Shown: positions 8,755 to 13,541 of the stretch, one piece after another
Layout of the letters: each line of letters begins with the position of its first letter
Position numbering within the stretch: the stretch's first letter is position 1
DNA from: Escherichia phage phiSUSP1
Reading direction: 5' to 3' (one strand)
DNA: 64,000 bases
Sequence record: KT454805
The notes under the pieces: generated by a model
What the model saw: only the letters and a program-made list of their open reading frames with translations
Told to the model about the DNA's origin: nothing
Databases searched by the model: none
Translations under genes and position numbers: made by a program

Positions 8755-10107
8755 ATGTGGAATCCAATTGTTAATGTAGATATTACATTGAACACCGCAG
8801 GAACTACGAGAGAAGGTTTTGGTCTACCATTATTCTTAGCGTCAACAGACAACTTTGAAGAAAGGGTTCGTGGCTATACTTCTCTGACTGAAGTTGCTGA
8901 AGATTTCGGTGAAGATACTGCTGCTTATAAAGCTGCAAAACAGCTATGGAGTCAGACTCCAAAGGTAACTCAGCTATATATTGGTAGACGTGCTATGCAG
9001 TATACAGTCTCAATTCCTGACGAAGTAACTGAAAGCACAGATTACTCTCTGACGGTTGCTGTAGGTGGTGGGGTTTCTCAGCCATACCAATACACCGCTC
9101 AAGCTGAGGACACTGCTCTGATTGTCCTGACGCAGTTTAAAGACCAGATTGAAGCTGACCCAACAATCAAAGATGATGTTACCATCAACGTAACAGGTAC
9201 TGGTAGCTCTGCAACCATGATTGTTACAAAAGCTGGTGACAATGACTTCGTAAAAGTTACCTCAACAACTAACACTGTGTCAATCGCTGGTACAACTGCT
9301 GATACTGCTGCAACTGCTCTTGCTGCAATTGAAACGTACTCAACTGACTGGTACTTCATCTCTGCTGAAGACAGAACTGCACAGTTTGTCTTGGCAATGG
9401 CTTCAGAGATTCAGGCTCGTAAGAAGATTTTCTTCACAGCTAACTCTGATGTAGCTGCACTGCAAGGGACTGAACTTGCATCGGCTTCTGATGTTCCTGC
9501 ACAACTTGCTAAGAGCATGTACACTCGTACAGTTTGTTTGTGGCATCACACTGCTAGCTACGACTACCCAGAAATGGCTTATGTCGCTTACGGTGCTCCG
9601 TATGATGCAGGTTCAATTGCTTGGGGTAACGCTCAGTTGACTGGTGTTGAAGCATCTCTTCAGCCAGCTAACCAGAGACCTCTGACAAGCATTCAGAAAT
9701 CCGCTTTGGATGTACGTCACTGCAACTTCATCGACCTTGATGGCGGTGTTCCAGTTGTACGTAGAGGTATCACGTCTGGTGGTGAATGGATTGATATCAT
9801 CCGTGGTGTTGACTGGTTAGAATCTGACTTGAAAACTTCTCTGAGAGACTTGCTAATTAATCAGAAGGGTGGTAAGATTACTTATGATGATACTGGTATT
9901 ACCCGTATTCGTCAGGTCATTGAAACCTCTCTGCAAAGAGCAGTTAACAGAAACTTCCTGTCATCTTACACAGTTAATGTTCCTAAAGCCTCTCAAGTTG
10001 CTTTGGCAGACAAGAAAGCTCGTATCCTGAAAGACGTTACCTTCGCAGGTATCTTAGCGGGTGCTATCTTGGATGTTGACTTGAAAGGTACAGTGGCTTA
10101 CGAATAA
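8755..10107 (+). CDS. tail sheath protein (putative)
   Basis: 450 aa ORF followed by a small tube-sized ORF, a chaperone pair and the tape measure, which is the contractile-tail gene order. Confidence 0.45.
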   Translation: MWNPIVNVDITLNTAGTTREGFGLPLFLASTDNFEERVRGYTSLTEVAEDFGEDTAAYKAAKQLWSQTPKVTQLYIGRRAMQYTVSIPDEVTESTDYSLTVAVGGGVSQPYQYTAQAEDTALIVLTQFKDQIEADPTIKDDVTINVTGTGSSATMIVTKAGDNDFVKVTSTTNTVSIAGTTADTAATALAAIETYSTDWYFISAEDRTAQFVLAMASEIQARKKIFFTANSDVAALQGTELASASDVPAQLAKSMYTRTVCLWHHTASYDYPEMAYVAYGAPYDAGSIAWGNAQLTGVEASLQPANQRPLTSIQKSALDVRHCNFIDLDGGVPVVRRGITSGGEWIDIIRGVDWLESDLKTSLRDLLINQKGGKITYDDTGITRIRQVIETSLQRAVNRNFLSSYTVNVPKASQVALADKKARILKDVTFAGILAGAILDVDLKGTVAYE

Positions 10108-10122
10108 TAGAGGTAAATTGGA

Positions 10123-10569
10123 ATGGCTATGTATCAGCAATATTCCCCTAAAGACGTTGTATGTAGCTGGAATGGTATTGCCATCGAAGGCTTTGCTCCA
10201 GATTCATTCTTACGTCTTCAGAGAACTTCTCCACTTGTTACACCAGTTGTTGGTGCAGGTGGTCAGGTAGCTCTGACAAGAAACGCAGACAAGACAGGTA
10301 CTATTGAGATTGAGCTAATGCAGACTTCACTCTCTAACCAGATGCTTTCTGCGATTCAAGCTAAACAAGATGATATGGAACTTGAAGAAGATATCTCTTC
10401 TAACTTCGTAATCTACGACCCATCTGGCTCTGTTCTGGCAACTGGTATTAACGCATGGTTGCAGGAACTGCCACAGATTGAACTTGGTCGTGACCAGAAC
10501 TCTAAAACTTGGATTTTTGGTTGTGAGAAGTTAGACTACACTTCTACGATTCCTGCGTCAAGTGTTTAA
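10123..10569 (+). CDS. tail tube protein (putative)
   Basis: 148 aa ORF after the sheath candidate, followed by a terminator. Confidence 0.45.
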   Translation: MAMYQQYSPKDVVCSWNGIAIEGFAPDSFLRLQRTSPLVTPVVGAGGQVALTRNADKTGTIEIELMQTSLSNQMLSAIQAKQDDMELEEDISSNFVIYDPSGSVLATGINAWLQELPQIELGRDQNSKTWIFGCEKLDYTSTIPASSV

Positions 10570-10582
10570 GAACATCCTAATA

Positions 10583-10616
10583 AGGGGGAGACTGTAAAAG
10601 GTCTTCCCTTTTTTCG
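10583..10616 (+). terminator. intrinsic terminator after tube gene
   Basis: imperfect hairpin GGGGGAGAC-tgtaaaa-GGTCTTCCC followed by TTTTTT. Confidence 0.55.
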
Positions 10617-10648
10617 TTTATAGAACCTAAGAAATTTAAGGAATCACA

Positions 10649-11059
10649 ATGAAGACAGAATCTAAAATTATTAATGGTAAGAAAGTGAATATTGTCCTAC
10701 TAGGTGCAAGAGATGGTATTAAAATGTCGATGAAACTTGGTAAAGTTGTTGTACCGACAATTGCTCAGATGTTTTCAAGTTTATCTGGGAAAGAGCAGAA
10801 AGAAGGTGAAGAAAGCGTAACAGCAGTACCTTTCAAAGAATTAGTTGAAGCTTGCTTTGACCGTATTGATGAACTCGATATTGATTCAATGGCTGCTCTG
10901 TTATTCCAAGGTGCGACTGTAGATGACTTCCCTCTAAACGTAGATAAATACTTCCAAGCAAACTACGGTGAATTTATTGACTTCTTGGCATTTGCTCTGG
11001 AGGCTAATTTCGGAAGTTTTTTCGAAGCAAGCATTTTCAAAAGCCTAACTTCTCAGTAA
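10649..11059 (+). CDS. tail assembly chaperone (G-like)
   Basis: 136 aa acidic ORF directly upstream of tape measure; contains slippery heptamer near the 3' end. Confidence 0.55.
   Translation: MKTESKIINGKKVNIVLLGARDGIKMSMKLGKVVVPTIAQMFSSLSGKEQKEGEESVTAVPFKELVEACFDRIDELDIDSMAALLFQGATVDDFPLNVDKYFQANYGEFIDFLAFALEANFGSFFEASIFKSLTSQ
11017..11023 (+). other. putative -1 programmed ribosomal frameshift slippery site T_TTT_TTC
   Basis: heptamer in X_XXY_YYZ register of ORF 10649..11059; the -1 frame is open from 11020 into ORF 11062..11301. Confidence 0.5.
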
Positions 11060-11301
11060 GCATGAGTAGTGCTATGCAGACCCCATTGACTGATGGGGCT
11101 GTAGAAGTAACTTATGAAGAAGCAGATGAGATGAAATTTGTGCTTGCTATTTACGGTATGGAAGGGTGTAAAGAAACACTCGACCAACTCTTCTCAATGA
11201 CTTTCTCCGATTTATTATCTCTGCGACAATATTTAGAAATCCAGAGGTCATACAAAGAAGAAATTGCTTATAACGAACTTAGAAGGGCAGGTAAAATTTA
11301 A
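11020..11301 (+). CDS. tail assembly chaperone frameshift extension (GT-like), annotated ORF 11062..11301
   Basis: -1 frame has no stop between the slippery site and ORF 11062..11301; ends at the tape measure start. Confidence 0.45.
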   Translation, partial: FRSKHFQKPNFSVSMSSAMQTPLTDGAVEVTYEEADEMKFVLAIYGMEGCKETLDQLFSMTFSDLLSLRQYLEIQRSYKEEIAYNELRRAGKI

Positions 11302-13540
11302 TGGCACAATATACAGTTGATAGCTTTATTGTGGAGTTGGGTTTCAGTGAAAAGGTTGTTAAAGGTTTGCAGAGAGTTGAAAGGATGGCTATGCAGTCTG
11401 CTCAACGAATCGAACGTAATATTAACAAAGCCTTTGACGTGAAACCTAATAAGTCTTCACAGGAAGCATTAAACAGAATTGTAAAAAACGCTCAGACTGC
11501 TTCGGGCAGAATCAATAAAGCACTCAACAACTCCCTTAACCTTGATTCACAAGGTGTTAAATCTCTTAAAAGACTGGAAACTCAAGGTAGAAAAACTGCC
11601 AAGGAAATTAACAAGGCTTTAAGAGACGCTATGAAAGTTGATGGAAAAGTCACTGTTCGTGGTGGTAGAAAAGGTGGTACTGGTTTCCCTCCTACTGGTG
11701 GAAGTGGTAACCCAAGACCTCCAAGACCTGATATTGCTCAGAGACAGATGGAAAGAATGTTTAACAACAACTTCTACTCTGGTCTGACACGTCGCCTTGA
11801 AACTATTGGTGGACAAGGTAACCAAATGGCAGCTTCCTTCAGAGGAAACCTGCAAGGTCTTTATAACAAATATAAGGGAACTGGTAAAGTCGGTGAATAT
11901 GAGATGGAAGTCAAAAAGCTCATTGACGTTACCAAGCGTTGGGTTATTGCAGAAAATGCTAGACTCAAGTCAGTCAGAGAATCAGCTTGGCTTCAGGAAA
12001 GAGCTAACTCATCTCTACGTCAGATGATTGGTGGTTTTGTTTCAGCTTATGCAGCCTTAGAATTGGCTCAGAAGACTATTGATGCAGGTGTTAAAAGACA
12101 GTCTGCACAGTTAGCCTCAACAGCTATCTTTGGAGCAGATACACAGCAAGCTAGAATGTTCGCTGCATCGTTTGCTCATCAGATTGGACAGAACTACACA
12201 GACACCATGAAGCAATACTCAAACTTTGCTGCTGGTGCTCAACCTGCTCTTGGATTCCAAGGGACTCAGGAGTTCTATAAGAATGCTGCGATGTTCTCCC
12301 GTATCAGGGGTGCAACAGACGAAGACCTGAAAGGTATCATGGTTGCTTTCCAACAGATGGCTTCTAAGGGTAAGATTCAGGCTGAAGAACTTCGTGGTCA
12401 GTTAGGTGACCGTTTGGCAGGTGCTGTACAGTTATTTGCTGATGCTATCGGTAAGACACCACAAGAACTTGATAAGATGATGAAGGACGGTAAACTCCTT
12501 GCTGAAGATGTACTTCCAAAGGTATCTGAAAAGATGGCTGAGTTGGTACAGGCAGCAGGTGGTATGAATGCCGTATCTAAGCAGACAGCTACCTCAATGG
12601 GTCAAGCGAAGTCTATGTGGGATAACATGTTAGTTGCATTGTTTAATAACTCTAGCGACGGTATTTCACAGCTTTCACAATCCATTGCAATGTTCTTACA
12701 AGGTTCTATGGGTACTGCTGAAGCACTTGGCACAGTGATTGGTTACCTGTTAAAAGGTGCTGGTAACTTACTTGACTTCGTAACAGATATCATGTATAGA
12801 ACATCTTCACTGTATTACTCTGCAATGGCATGGTACAAGGATTTGGATGCAAGTCAACAGAAACTTATCAAGGATTCTGCTGAACTAGTTTCAACCTTTG
12901 CTATGATTGGTGTTGCAATTGCTGCTATTACGAAGGTTGCAAAAATCTTTGGCGGTACTGTAGCATTCGTTAAGAGTATCTTTGAAGAAGGTATCTTTGC
13001 AAAAATTATGCAGAAGTTTGGTTTAGGTGGAGCAGCAGCAGCCTCTGAAGCAGCAGGTGTTGCAGGTGTATCAGCAACTAGGATGGCTCTCGGTACAGTT
13101 GGTTCATCACTGATGTTGTCCGGTTCTACAGACAGAAAGAACAATGGTAGATTCAGTGAAGTTGACCTTCCAAAACCTTTTGAAGACGCTGTATCAAGCA
13201 TCACCAACCCTAAACGTCCAATGTTCTTTGACCAGAATGGACAGCTACAGTTTGCACAATATTCTGTAGATGCTCAAGGTAATCGTAGCTTTGTTGATAA
13301 TGGAATGTCCAATTGGGATATTATCATGAACAACTTGTCAGAGTCTTTAAACAACTTTGCAACTAAGTTCAACCAAACCCCAATGATGATGACGCCTTCT
13401 GGTTTCCCTATGCAGACTAGACAGACTCTGAATGTTTCATTCAATCTGGATGGTAAGCAGATTGCTACTAAGACGGTTGATATCATGGACAAGAACCAAG
13501 AAGATATCCTTCTTAACTCAAGTTACCCAGAGGAAGAATA

Positions 13541-13541
<1 letters not shown>
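11301..13541 (+). CDS. tail tape measure protein
   Basis: 746 aa, helical/coiled-coil composition, Gly/Ala-rich hydrophobic segments, position after the chaperone pair. Confidence 0.8.

What the first reader, a model, noticed from the sequence alone, without database searches (positions are those of the whole stretch)
11017..11023. Slippery heptamer T_TTT_TTC for a -1 frameshift joining the two tail chaperone ORFs
The heptamer lies in the X_XXY_YYZ register of ORF 10649..11059, about 12 codons before its stop. The -1 frame is open from the slip site straight into ORF 11062..11301, which ends exactly at the tape measure start. This is the conserved G/GT chaperone frameshift arrangement of tailed phages and it means ORF 11062..11301 is probably not independently initiated.
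Basis: partly seen in the sequence, partly recalled or inferred. Interest (0 to 1): 0.45.

Follow-up and report, generated by a model that had tools for sequence, protein, structure and literature searches.

The report
Phage tail chaperone -1 frameshift site
The T_TTT_TTC heptamer is real and almost certainly the programmed -1 ribosomal frameshift that fuses the two tail-assembly chaperone reading frames of this FelixO1-like E. coli phage, an ordinary feature already annotated at the same site in sister phages.

Summary
Observation confirmed and interpretation supported, but the feature is already known.

**What is there.** Window 11017-11023 is TTTTTTC in X_XXY_YYZ register of ORF 10649..11059, a Pfam Phage_TAC_15 chaperone. 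The -1 frame is open from 11008 to the TAA at 11299-11301, which overlaps the tape-measure ATG at 11301. The fusion would be 217 aa and 24.5 kDa.

**Origin.** The window is a Suspvirus (Ounavirinae), about 98% identical to phage SUSP2.

**Conservation.**
- The same in-register T_TTT_TTY sits at the homologous invariant FF dipeptide in all 24 clusters (<60% aa identity) of this chaperone family. The chance product from local codon usage is about 10^-19.5.
- Candidate T start codons lack a Shine-Dalgarno sequence and are not conserved.
- T-frame residues upstream of any start codon are conserved.

**Prior annotation.** My predicted fusions for phages Moogle/Mijalis and Mushroom are identical to their deposited joined-CDS proteins. 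The Moogle and Michonne genome papers state the frameshift. The Suspvirus records I opened still list two separate CDS.

**Stimulators.** No downstream hairpin is conserved in this lineage. A Shine-Dalgarno-like GGAGG lies 13 nt upstream, as in dnaX. Its GAG codon is kept in 18 of 20 clusters against 7.5 expected. That role is inferred, not shown.

**Missing.** No experiment exists for this clade.

The parts
10123..10569 (+). Tail tube gene (context: upstream boundary of the chaperone cassette)
   Evidence: PF11681 E = 5e-07 and phrog_280 E = 2e-47. It follows the sheath gene 8755-10107 (phrog_205).
10582..10621 (+). Terminator-like hairpin plus T tract between the tube and chaperone genes
   Evidence: Scan hit with 12 pairs followed by TTTCGTTTAT. 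The homologous position is annotated as a terminator in Citrobacter phage Mijalis. Its function is inferred.
10649..11059 (+). Chaperone G ORF (frame 0), 136 aa, 15.0 kDa
   Evidence: PF21822 Phage_TAC_15 E = 1e-21 and phrog_1613 E = 2.5e-46. The start has a Shine-Dalgarno sequence of -6.1 kcal/mol.
10999..11003 (+). Internal Shine-Dalgarno-like GGAGG, 13 nt 5' of the heptamer; candidate frameshift stimulator (inferred)
   Evidence: Its duplex with the anti-SD is -9.3 kcal/mol, a value reached by 0.4% of background 20-mers. The GAG codon is kept in 18 of 20 family clusters against 7.5 expected, P = 4.5e-7. The spacing lies within the 9-14 nt reported for -1 stimulators (PMC5009743). The element is absent in the Hafnia and Erwinia phages and in L153.
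11008..11059 (+). Overlap in which frame 0 and the -1 frame are both open (17 codons)
   Evidence: The -1 frame has a stop TAA at 11005-11007, and frame 0 stops at 11057-11059.
11017..11023 (+). Slippery heptamer T_TTT_TTC (P site TTT to TTT, A site TTC to TTT)
   Evidence: In register. Conserved in 35 of 35 close loci and in 24 of 24 clusters below 60% identity. This class is among the most efficient in E. coli (PMC4066793).
11009..11047 (+). Island of near-invariant nucleotides spanning the slip site
   Evidence: The invariant fraction is 0.86-0.95 in 21-nt windows, against 0.32 for the whole G-T locus among 7 Ounavirinae representatives. For Erwinia phages the only blastn match to the G-T query (window 10640-11310) falls here, at window 11006-11046.
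11023..11301 (+). T segment read in the -1 frame after the slip (C 11023 is read twice); 92 codons plus TAA
   Evidence: Open frame. phrog_4963 E = 3e-53. Residues before any start codon are conserved.
11301..13541 (+). Tape measure protein gene; its ATG overlaps the T stop (TAATG)
   Evidence: PF20155 E = 2e-17 and phrog_4036. The start has a Shine-Dalgarno sequence of -8.8 kcal/mol.

Best explanation
**Mechanism.** A minority of ribosomes translating chaperone gene G (10649..11059) slip back one base on U_UUU_UUC (11017-11023). The P-site tRNA-Phe re-pairs from UUU to UUU and the A-site tRNA-Phe from UUC to UUU. Decoding resumes at CGA (11023) in the -1 frame.

**Product.** The result is a 217-aa, 24.5-kDa G-T fusion with the junction ...ANFGSFF|RSKHFQKP.... 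It ends at TAA 11299-11301, directly on the tape-measure start.

**Function, by analogy with lambda gpG/gpGT and P2 E/E+E'.** Abundant G and rare G-T would coat the tape measure protein, and the T domain would recruit tube subunits.

**What is shown.**
- Sequence, register and open frames.
- Family membership of the proteins.
- Deep codon-level conservation of the heptamer.
- Lack of a usable T start.

**What is inferred.**
- That the shift is ribosomal.
- Its efficiency.
- The chaperone roles.
- That the upstream GGAGG (10999-11003, 13 nt 5') stimulates the shift through 16S rRNA pairing, as in dnaX.
For: **Site.** Register and open frames.

**Gene context.** G is PF21822 TAC, T is phrog_4963, and the flanks are tube and tape measure.

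**Conservation of the heptamer.**
- It is in register in 35 of 35 Ounavirinae loci, including those at 43-47% identity.
- It is present in Vequintavirinae and Shandongvirus relatives at 28-31% identity.
- It is present in 24 of 24 clusters below 60% identity. The chance product from local codon usage is 10^-19.5, which treats the clusters as independent and so overstates significance somewhat.
- It is present in two lineages retrieved independently of the motif.
- Nucleotide invariance across the G-T locus peaks at 11009-11047.

**T has no usable start.**
- The candidate starts lack a Shine-Dalgarno sequence.
- In L018, L070, L031, L153 and L155 the first in-frame start lies 114-177 nt after the heptamer, inside conserved T sequence.
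- The -1-frame peptide right after the heptamer keeps a basic/aromatic pattern (RSKHF, RQERF, HERRF, YRKRY) although the DNA differs.

**Independent annotation.**
- The predicted fusions equal the deposited joined-CDS proteins of Moogle/Mijalis and Mushroom exactly. The alternative junction is absent from the collection.
- The Moogle and Michonne papers state a -1 frameshift.

**Precedent.**
- H_HH.U_UU.Y heptamers are among the most efficient in E. coli.
- P2 uses TTTTTTG without a hairpin.

**Upstream GGAGG.**
Against: **No experiment.** No experimental detection of the fusion exists for this phage or, as far as I found, for any Ounavirinae.

**No downstream structure.**
- Window 11024-11075 folds with z = -0.16, and the L004 relative with z = +1.04.
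- The alifold consensus is -0.93 kcal/mol with no covariation.
- There is no Rfam hit.

**The upstream GGAGG is not universal.** It is missing in Hafnia and Erwinia phages and in L153, and weakened in mistaenkt (GGAGA).

**Sf14 virion mass spectrometry.** It reported the T ORF (gp42) but not G (gp41). That is unexpected if T exists only as a fusion alongside excess G. The preparation was crude and no peptide detail was available.

**Existing annotation.** The closest records (SUSP2, mistaenkt, CHB7) annotate two separate CDS.

**A second possible slip site.** An in-register T_TTC tetramer at 11035-11038 could contribute a minor alternative junction.
Confidence: 0.9

Rival explanations
1. Two independently translated proteins. 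G terminates at 11059 and T is initiated on its own at ATG 11062 or 11074, as annotated in SUSP2, mistaenkt and CHB7. The heptamer would be incidental.
For: - An ATG lies 3 nt after the G stop, so termination-reinitiation coupling is conceivable.
- Three Suspvirus records annotate separate CDS.
- Sf14 virion MS detected the T ORF product but not G.
Against: - Neither ATG has a Shine-Dalgarno sequence: +0.7 and -2.2 kcal/mol, in the bottom 3-9% of window ORF starts.
- The ATG is mutated to ATA in L018 and is absent for 114-177 nt in the Hafnia and Erwinia phages, L153 and L155, while the upstream T-frame sequence is conserved.
- This reading does not explain the 24 of 24 codon-level conservation of T_TTT_TTY or the nucleotide island.
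Confidence: 0.04
2. Transcriptional slippage. RNA polymerase adds one U in the T6 run, so a fraction of mRNAs encode the fusion in a single frame. The protein would have one extra Phe or the same junction region, and no ribosomal shift would be involved.
For: The site is a homopolymeric T run, T6 here and T7 in several relatives. Slippage on A/T runs is known in bacteria (PMC5009743).
Against: - The bacterial cases described there involve runs of 9 A or T, and six is short.
- The register of the run relative to frame 0 is strictly conserved in 24 of 24 clusters. That matters for tRNA re-pairing but not for polymerase slippage.
- The conserved SD-like element at 13 nt is a ribosome-level signal.
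- The P2 TTTTTTG site is described as a translational frameshift.
Confidence: 0.05
3. Chance heptamer and chance open frame with no biological role, or a sequencing error in a homopolymer.
For: A single X_XXY_YYZ in a 17-codon overlap is not vanishingly rare on its own, with 0.046 expected.
Against: The site is conserved in about 300 independently sequenced phage genomes and in all 24 divergent clusters. It is the only efficient-class heptamer in the window with a long -1 extension.
Confidence: 0.01

Closest known systems
Tape-measure chaperone frameshift of FelixO1-like phages (Citrobacter phages Moogle, Mijalis, Michonne, Mordin; Salmonella phage Mushroom)
   Same: - The genes are orthologous: 76-81% aa identity in G.
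- The heptamer is the identical T_TTT_TTC at the homologous FF codons, and the gene order is the same.
- Their GenBank joined-CDS proteins equal the fusion I predict from slipping at this heptamer.
- The frameshift is stated in PMC4319497 and PMC4591319.
   Different: The window belongs to the genus Suspvirus. The three Suspvirus records I opened (SUSP2, mistaenkt, CHB7) annotate two separate CDS, and the window's own 217-aa fusion is not in the protein collection. In those relatives the frameshift is an annotation, not an experiment.
Bacteriophage P2 E / E+E' tail chaperone frameshift (Christie et al. 2002, as cited in PMC3091744)
   Same: - It is a contractile-tail phage.
- It uses a -1 shift on a T6-based heptamer (TTTTTTG) near the end of the small ORF between the tube and tape-measure genes.
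- It has no downstream hairpin.
   Different: - The proteins are of a different size: E is 91 aa and E+E' is 142 aa. I did not compare their sequences with G.
- The last base is G rather than C.
- P2's shift is described in the literature as a translational frameshift at this site. This one has not been tested.
Bacteriophage lambda gpG / gpGT (Levin 1993; Xu, Hendrix, Duda 2004, 2013, 2014, as summarised in PMC5009743)
   Same: - It is the same logic: two overlapping ORFs between the major tail gene and the tape-measure gene, with a low-level -1 shift giving a fixed ratio.
- G binds the tape measure and T binds the tail tube subunit.
- Neither product is found in virions.
   Different: - The slip site is G_GGA_AAG in lambda.
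- Lambda is a siphovirus.
- I found no detectable sequence similarity. G here is Pfam Phage_TAC_15.
E. coli dnaX -1 frameshift cassette
   Same: It has an internal Shine-Dalgarno-like element upstream of an X_XXY_YYZ heptamer. The 13-nt spacing here lies within the 9-14 nt reported for -1 stimulation.
   Different: - dnaX also needs a downstream stem-loop and reaches about 50% efficiency.
- Here no hairpin is conserved and efficiency is presumably low.
- The stimulatory role of GGAGG here is inferred only.

Membership tests
Conserved tail-assembly-chaperone (G/GT-type) programmed frameshift of long-tailed phages (Xu, Hendrix, Duda 2004) | Two ORFs located between the major tail/tube gene and the tape measure gene | tested here: met
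   The order is tube 10123-10569, G 10649-11059, T to 11301, tape measure 11301-13541. Assignments come from Pfam and PHROGs.
Conserved tail-assembly-chaperone (G/GT-type) programmed frameshift of long-tailed phages (Xu, Hendrix, Duda 2004) | The second ORF overlaps the end of the first in the -1 frame and lacks its own translation start signals | tested here: met
   The -1 frame is open from 11008. Candidate starts have no Shine-Dalgarno sequence. The start codon is not conserved, while upstream T residues are.
Conserved tail-assembly-chaperone (G/GT-type) programmed frameshift of long-tailed phages (Xu, Hendrix, Duda 2004) | A canonical slippery sequence in register within the overlap, conserved among relatives | tested here: met
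   T_TTT_TTC at 11017-11023. It is conserved in 35 of 35 close loci and 24 of 24 divergent clusters.
Conserved tail-assembly-chaperone (G/GT-type) programmed frameshift of long-tailed phages (Xu, Hendrix, Duda 2004) | A fusion protein is actually made at a low, fixed ratio and is required for tail assembly | not testable with these tools
   I found no experimental data for this clade. Sf14 virion MS detects T-ORF peptides only, without junction information.
Pfam PF21822 Phage_TAC_15 (tail assembly chaperone) | The sequence matches the family profile above the curated cutoff | tested here: met
   78.2 bits against a cutoff of 22, E = 1e-21, covering profile positions 1-124 of 127.
dnaX-type Shine-Dalgarno-stimulated -1 frameshift | An SD-like sequence 9-14 nt 5' of the slip site | tested here: met
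   GGAGG at 10999-11003, 13 nt upstream, -9.3 kcal/mol. The GAG codon is enriched family-wide, P = 4.5e-7. The spacing rule comes from PMC5009743.
dnaX-type Shine-Dalgarno-stimulated -1 frameshift | A downstream stem-loop 5-9 nt after the slip site | tested here: not met
   There is no significant or conserved structure in Ounavirinae. Hairpins starting about 7-8 nt after the heptamer are present in some distant lineages of the same family, such as L126 and L143.
dnaX-type Shine-Dalgarno-stimulated -1 frameshift | Mutating the SD-like element lowers frameshift efficiency | not testable with these tools
   This requires a reporter assay.

The most novel reading that the evidence does not exclude
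The Phage_TAC_15 chaperone family carries a family-wide RNA-level frameshift cassette: (G)GAGG, then 13 nt, then T_TTT_TTY. The family's most conserved protein motif, L-E-[AV]-N-[FY]-[GS]-S-F-F, would then be conserved largely because it encodes that signal. Lineages would use the upstream rRNA-pairing element, a downstream hairpin, or, in Ounavirinae, an unexplained invariant unstructured 3' tract (GAAGCAAGCATTTTCAAAA). Shine-Dalgarno-type stimulation is, to my knowledge, not an established feature of phage G/GT frameshifts.
Probability: 0.4. Interest if true: 0.3.

Novelty: already known. Interest (0 to 1): 0.12.

Why it matters
**Practical value.** The main value is for annotation. Suspvirus genomes such as SUSP2, mistaenkt and CHB7 list the T ORF as a separate small gene with arbitrary starts. 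They should instead carry a joined CDS with ribosomal slippage at T_TTT_TTC, as Moogle and Mushroom do.

**Biological value.** The site is one more instance of a very widespread recoding event, and it adds nothing unexpected.

**Side observation.** A conserved Shine-Dalgarno-like element sits 13 nt upstream, across a chaperone family whose members otherwise share 21-50% identity. This is a modest, testable lead on how these usually structure-less phage frameshifts set their efficiency.

Tried and rejected
- **Downstream hairpin or pseudoknot.** Single-sequence folds of 52-87 nt after the heptamer in the window and four relatives gave z between -0.83 and +1.04. The exception was the 87-nt window fold (z = -2.1), which owes its score to a window-specific hairpin about 65 nt downstream that Felixounavirus does not share. 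RNAalifold on 7 genera gave -0.93 kcal/mol with no covariation. Rfam gave no hit at E <= 1. I rejected a conserved 3' stimulator for this lineage.
- **Alternative slip site.** I considered the in-register T_TTC tetramer at 11035-11038. The fusion with that junction is not among deposited proteins, and tetramers are about 10-fold weaker than heptamers. I keep it only as a possible minor site.
- **GGAGG as a ribosome-binding site for an internal start.** There is no ATG, GTG or TTG between it and the heptamer, so I rejected this.
- **Whole-database protein search with the fusion.** It returned only unfused G proteins, because fused entries are buried inside 90% clusters. The exact look-up resolved this.
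- **Sf14 supplementary files.** They held no peptide-level MS data.
- **First literature search.** It found only an irrelevant paper.
- **Degenerate DNA pattern scan of viral contigs.** It recovered only contigs already found, with no synonymous variants of the 3' tract.

Full report
**1. The observation.** Window 11017-11023 is TTTTTTC. ORF 10649..11059 is read ...GGA AGT TTT TTC GAA GCA..., so the heptamer is in X_XXY_YYZ register. Eleven sense codons separate TTC from TAA at 11057.

The -1 frame has a stop at 11005-11007. It is then open from 11008 through ATG 11062 to TAA 11299-11301, whose last A is the A of the tape-measure ATG (TAATG).

Slipping at the heptamer gives a 217-aa, 24.5-kDa protein. 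G alone is 136 aa and 15.0 kDa.

On chance:
- In-register XXXYYYZ heptamers occur at 53 of 19,784 codons in ORFs >=100 aa of this window, so 0.046 are expected in the 17-codon overlap.
- T_TTT_TTC in register is unique in the window.
- Among 12 efficient-class in-register heptamers, only this one opens a -1 frame that runs beyond the frame-0 stop, by 92 codons.

**2. What the locus is.** The 4.9 kb around the site is 97.9% identical to Escherichia phage SUSP2 (Ounavirinae, Suspvirus). It is 84-86% identical to Felixounavirus and Mooglevirus phages.

| Coordinates | Gene | Evidence |
|---|---|---|
| 8755-10107 | tail sheath | phrog_205, E = 4e-120 |
| 10123-10569 | tail tube | PF11681, phrog_280 |
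| 10649-11059 | tail assembly chaperone G | PF21822 Phage_TAC_15, 78 bits against a cutoff of 22 |
| 11062-11301 | T ORF | phrog_4963 'tail assembly chaperone', E = 3e-53 |
| 11301-13541 | tape measure protein | PF20155, phrog_4036 |

The fusion matches phrog_3840 over positions 6-157 of 158, against 6-136 for G alone. Members of that family therefore already extend into this -1 frame.

**3. Comparative evidence.**

*Heptamer conservation.*
- All 35 Ounavirinae loci first collected have T_TTT_TTC in register, with the -1 frame open to the tape-measure start. This includes Hafnia and Erwinia phages with only 43-47% identity in G.
- Relatives found by tblastn at 28-31% identity have T_TTT_TTC or T_TTT_TTT at the homologous N-[FY]-G-x-F-F motif. 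In each, a -1 ORF ends just before the tape measure. They are Vequintavirinae A5-4 and FENT2, and Shandongvirus H101.
- A profile-guided scan of viral contigs gave 80 loci. Together with the three tblastn relatives they fall into 24 clusters below 60% identity, with GC from 35 to 65%. All 24 encode the invariant FF as TTT-TTY preceded by a codon ending in T.
- From each locus's own codon usage, the probability of that arrangement by chance is 0.03-0.5 per cluster. The product is 10^-19.5. The clusters are not fully independent, so this overstates significance, but the conclusion is robust.
- Two further lineages retrieved purely by protein similarity (L153, L155) show the same arrangement.

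*Nucleotide invariance.* Within Ounavirinae, invariance across the whole G-T locus peaks sharply at 11009-11047, at 0.86-0.95 against a mean of 0.32. For Erwinia phages the only blastn match to the G-T query (window 10640-11310) lies at window 11006-11046.

**4. Is T independently initiated?**
- ATG 11062 and ATG 11074 have anti-SD duplex energies of +0.7 and -2.2 kcal/mol. That is like random positions (median -1.9) and in the bottom 3-9% of ORF starts in the window (median -5.9). G scores -6.1 and the tape measure -8.8.
- The ATG is ATA in L018.
- In the Hafnia and Erwinia phages, L153 and L155, the first ATG, GTG or TTG in the T frame lies 114-177 nt after the heptamer, inside conserved T sequence.
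- The T-frame peptide right after the heptamer (RSKHFQKP) is conserved in Ounavirinae. It keeps a basic/aromatic pattern in distant relatives whose DNA differs (RQERF, HERRF, YRKRY). This indicates that -1 decoding starts at the heptamer.

**5. Already known.**
- Citrobacter phage Mijalis and Salmonella phage Mushroom carry joined CDS features across this site.
- The fusion I predict from slipping at T_TTT_TTC is residue-for-residue identical to the deposited proteins AIW03804.1/ARB06563.1/YP_009145710.1 (Moogle/Mijalis) and AJF40599.1/YP_009600435.1 (Mushroom). The alternative-junction versions are absent.
- The Moogle and Michonne genome announcements state a translational frameshift to the -1 frame in the tape-measure chaperone (PMC4319497, PMC4591319).
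- By contrast SUSP2, mistaenkt and CHB7 (all Suspvirus), Sf14 and phiEa104 list two separate CDS. The T starts are inconsistent or truncated, only 37 aa in phiEa104.
- The window's own fusion is not in the protein collection.

**6. Mechanism.**

*The slip site.* In E. coli, H_HH.U_UU.Y heptamers are among the most efficient -1 motifs, and U_UU.U_UU.C is used by IS elements (PMC4066793). P2 makes E+E' by a -1 shift at TTTTTTG without a downstream hairpin (PMC3091744). The general G/GT model is summarised in PMC5009743: G and GT bind the tape measure, T recruits the tail tube protein, and neither is in the virion.

*Downstream structure.* I found none in this lineage:
- Window 11024-11075 gives z = -0.16, and Felixounavirus gives +1.04.
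- The alifold consensus is -0.93 kcal/mol with no compensatory change.
- There is no Rfam match.
- Several distant, mostly GC-rich lineages of the same family do have a clear hairpin starting about 7-8 nt after the heptamer, for example L126 (z = -3.7) and L143 (z = -4.8).

*Upstream element.* GGAGG at 10999-11003 lies 13 nt 5' of the heptamer. Its duplex with the anti-SD is -9.3 kcal/mol, matched by 0.4% of background 20-mers.
- The same element at the same spacing occurs in Felixounavirus, Mooglevirus, FENT2 and many metagenomic lineages. H101 has AGGAG at 11 nt.
- The Glu codon that forms the element is GAG rather than GAA in 18 of 20 clusters, against 7.5 expected from local codon usage (Poisson-binomial P = 4.5e-7).
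- This position is upstream of the -1 frame stop, so dual coding cannot explain the bias.
- Internal Shine-Dalgarno sequences 9-14 nt upstream stimulate -1 shifts in dnaX and many IS elements (PMC5009743).
- The element is absent in Hafnia and Erwinia phages and in L153, so it is not obligatory. Its role here is an inference.

*Unexplained.* The invariant, unstructured 3' tract GAAGCAAGCATTTTCAAAA in Ounavirinae is not explained beyond dual coding.

**7. Rivals.**
- Independent T initiation is disfavoured (section 4).
- Transcriptional slippage on T6 is possible. The run is short compared with the 9-nt runs described for bacteria. The strict conservation of register, and the ribosome-level Shine-Dalgarno-like element, point to the ribosome.
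- Chance or sequencing error is excluded by conservation in about 300 genomes.

**8. Caveat.** Mass spectrometry of Sf14 (Mooglevirus) particles listed gp42, the T ORF, as detected and gp41, which is G, as not detected (PMC11821841). This shows that the T frame is translated. It is odd if T exists only as a fusion alongside excess G. The preparation was a simple pellet, and no peptide data were in the held supplements. Re-searching that dataset for the junction peptide would be decisive.

**9. Verdict.** The feature is an ordinary member of a well-known class, and it is already annotated at the identical site in sister genera. Interest is low. The only mildly new element is the family-wide (G)GAGG-N13-T_TTT_TTY cassette.

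Noticed in passing
window 10999-11003: A Shine-Dalgarno-like GGAGG lies 13 nt upstream of the slippery heptamer. The GAG codon that forms it is kept in 18 of 20 divergent clusters of the chaperone family, against 7.5 expected. It is a candidate dnaX-like stimulator.
   Followed up: yes
window 11009-11047: A near-invariant nucleotide island spans the slip site across Ounavirinae genera, including phages with 43-47% identity in G. The 3' tract GAAGCAAGCATTTTCAAAA is unstructured. Its conservation beyond dual coding is unexplained.
   Followed up: partly
window 10582-10621: A terminator-like hairpin (12 pairs) with a T tract sits between the tube gene and the chaperone gene. The homologous spot is annotated as a terminator in phage Mijalis. 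It may reduce expression of the chaperone and tape-measure genes relative to sheath and tube.
   Followed up: partly
window 11035-11038: A second, weaker in-register slip motif, the T_TTC tetramer (ATT TTC), lies inside the overlap and is also conserved. It would give a fusion of the same length with the junction ...FFEASIFQKP....
   Followed up: partly
window 11081-11098: A hairpin CCCCAT-TGACTG-ATGGGG lies inside the T ORF, about 65 nt after the slip site. It is present in Suspvirus and Mooglevirus but not in Felixounavirus, and is too far away to be a classical stimulator.
   Followed up: partly
L126, L143, L132, L146 (about 7-8 nt after their heptamers): Distant, mostly GC-rich members of the same chaperone family have strong hairpins just downstream of T_TTT_TTY (z = -3.2 to -4.8). 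Lineages of one family therefore appear to use different stimulators.
   Followed up: partly
L071 (Shigella phage Sf14 gp41/gp42); PMC11821841 Table 1: Published virion mass spectrometry lists the T ORF product as detected but the G product as not detected. This is unexpected for chaperones thought to be absent from virions and to be made as G plus G-T.
   Followed up: partly
L035 (Erwinia phage phiEa104, locus 1389-1502) and L001/L002/L072: Public records annotate the T ORF with inconsistent starts, and in phiEa104 it is truncated to 37 aa. These are annotation artefacts of not modelling the frameshift.
   Followed up: yes
window 35048 and 35246 (ORF starting 34998, + strand): Two in-register A_AAA_AAG heptamers fall in one 140-aa ORF. 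Their -1 frames stop after 4 and 9 codons, so at most they would give truncated products. They are probably incidental.
   Followed up: partly
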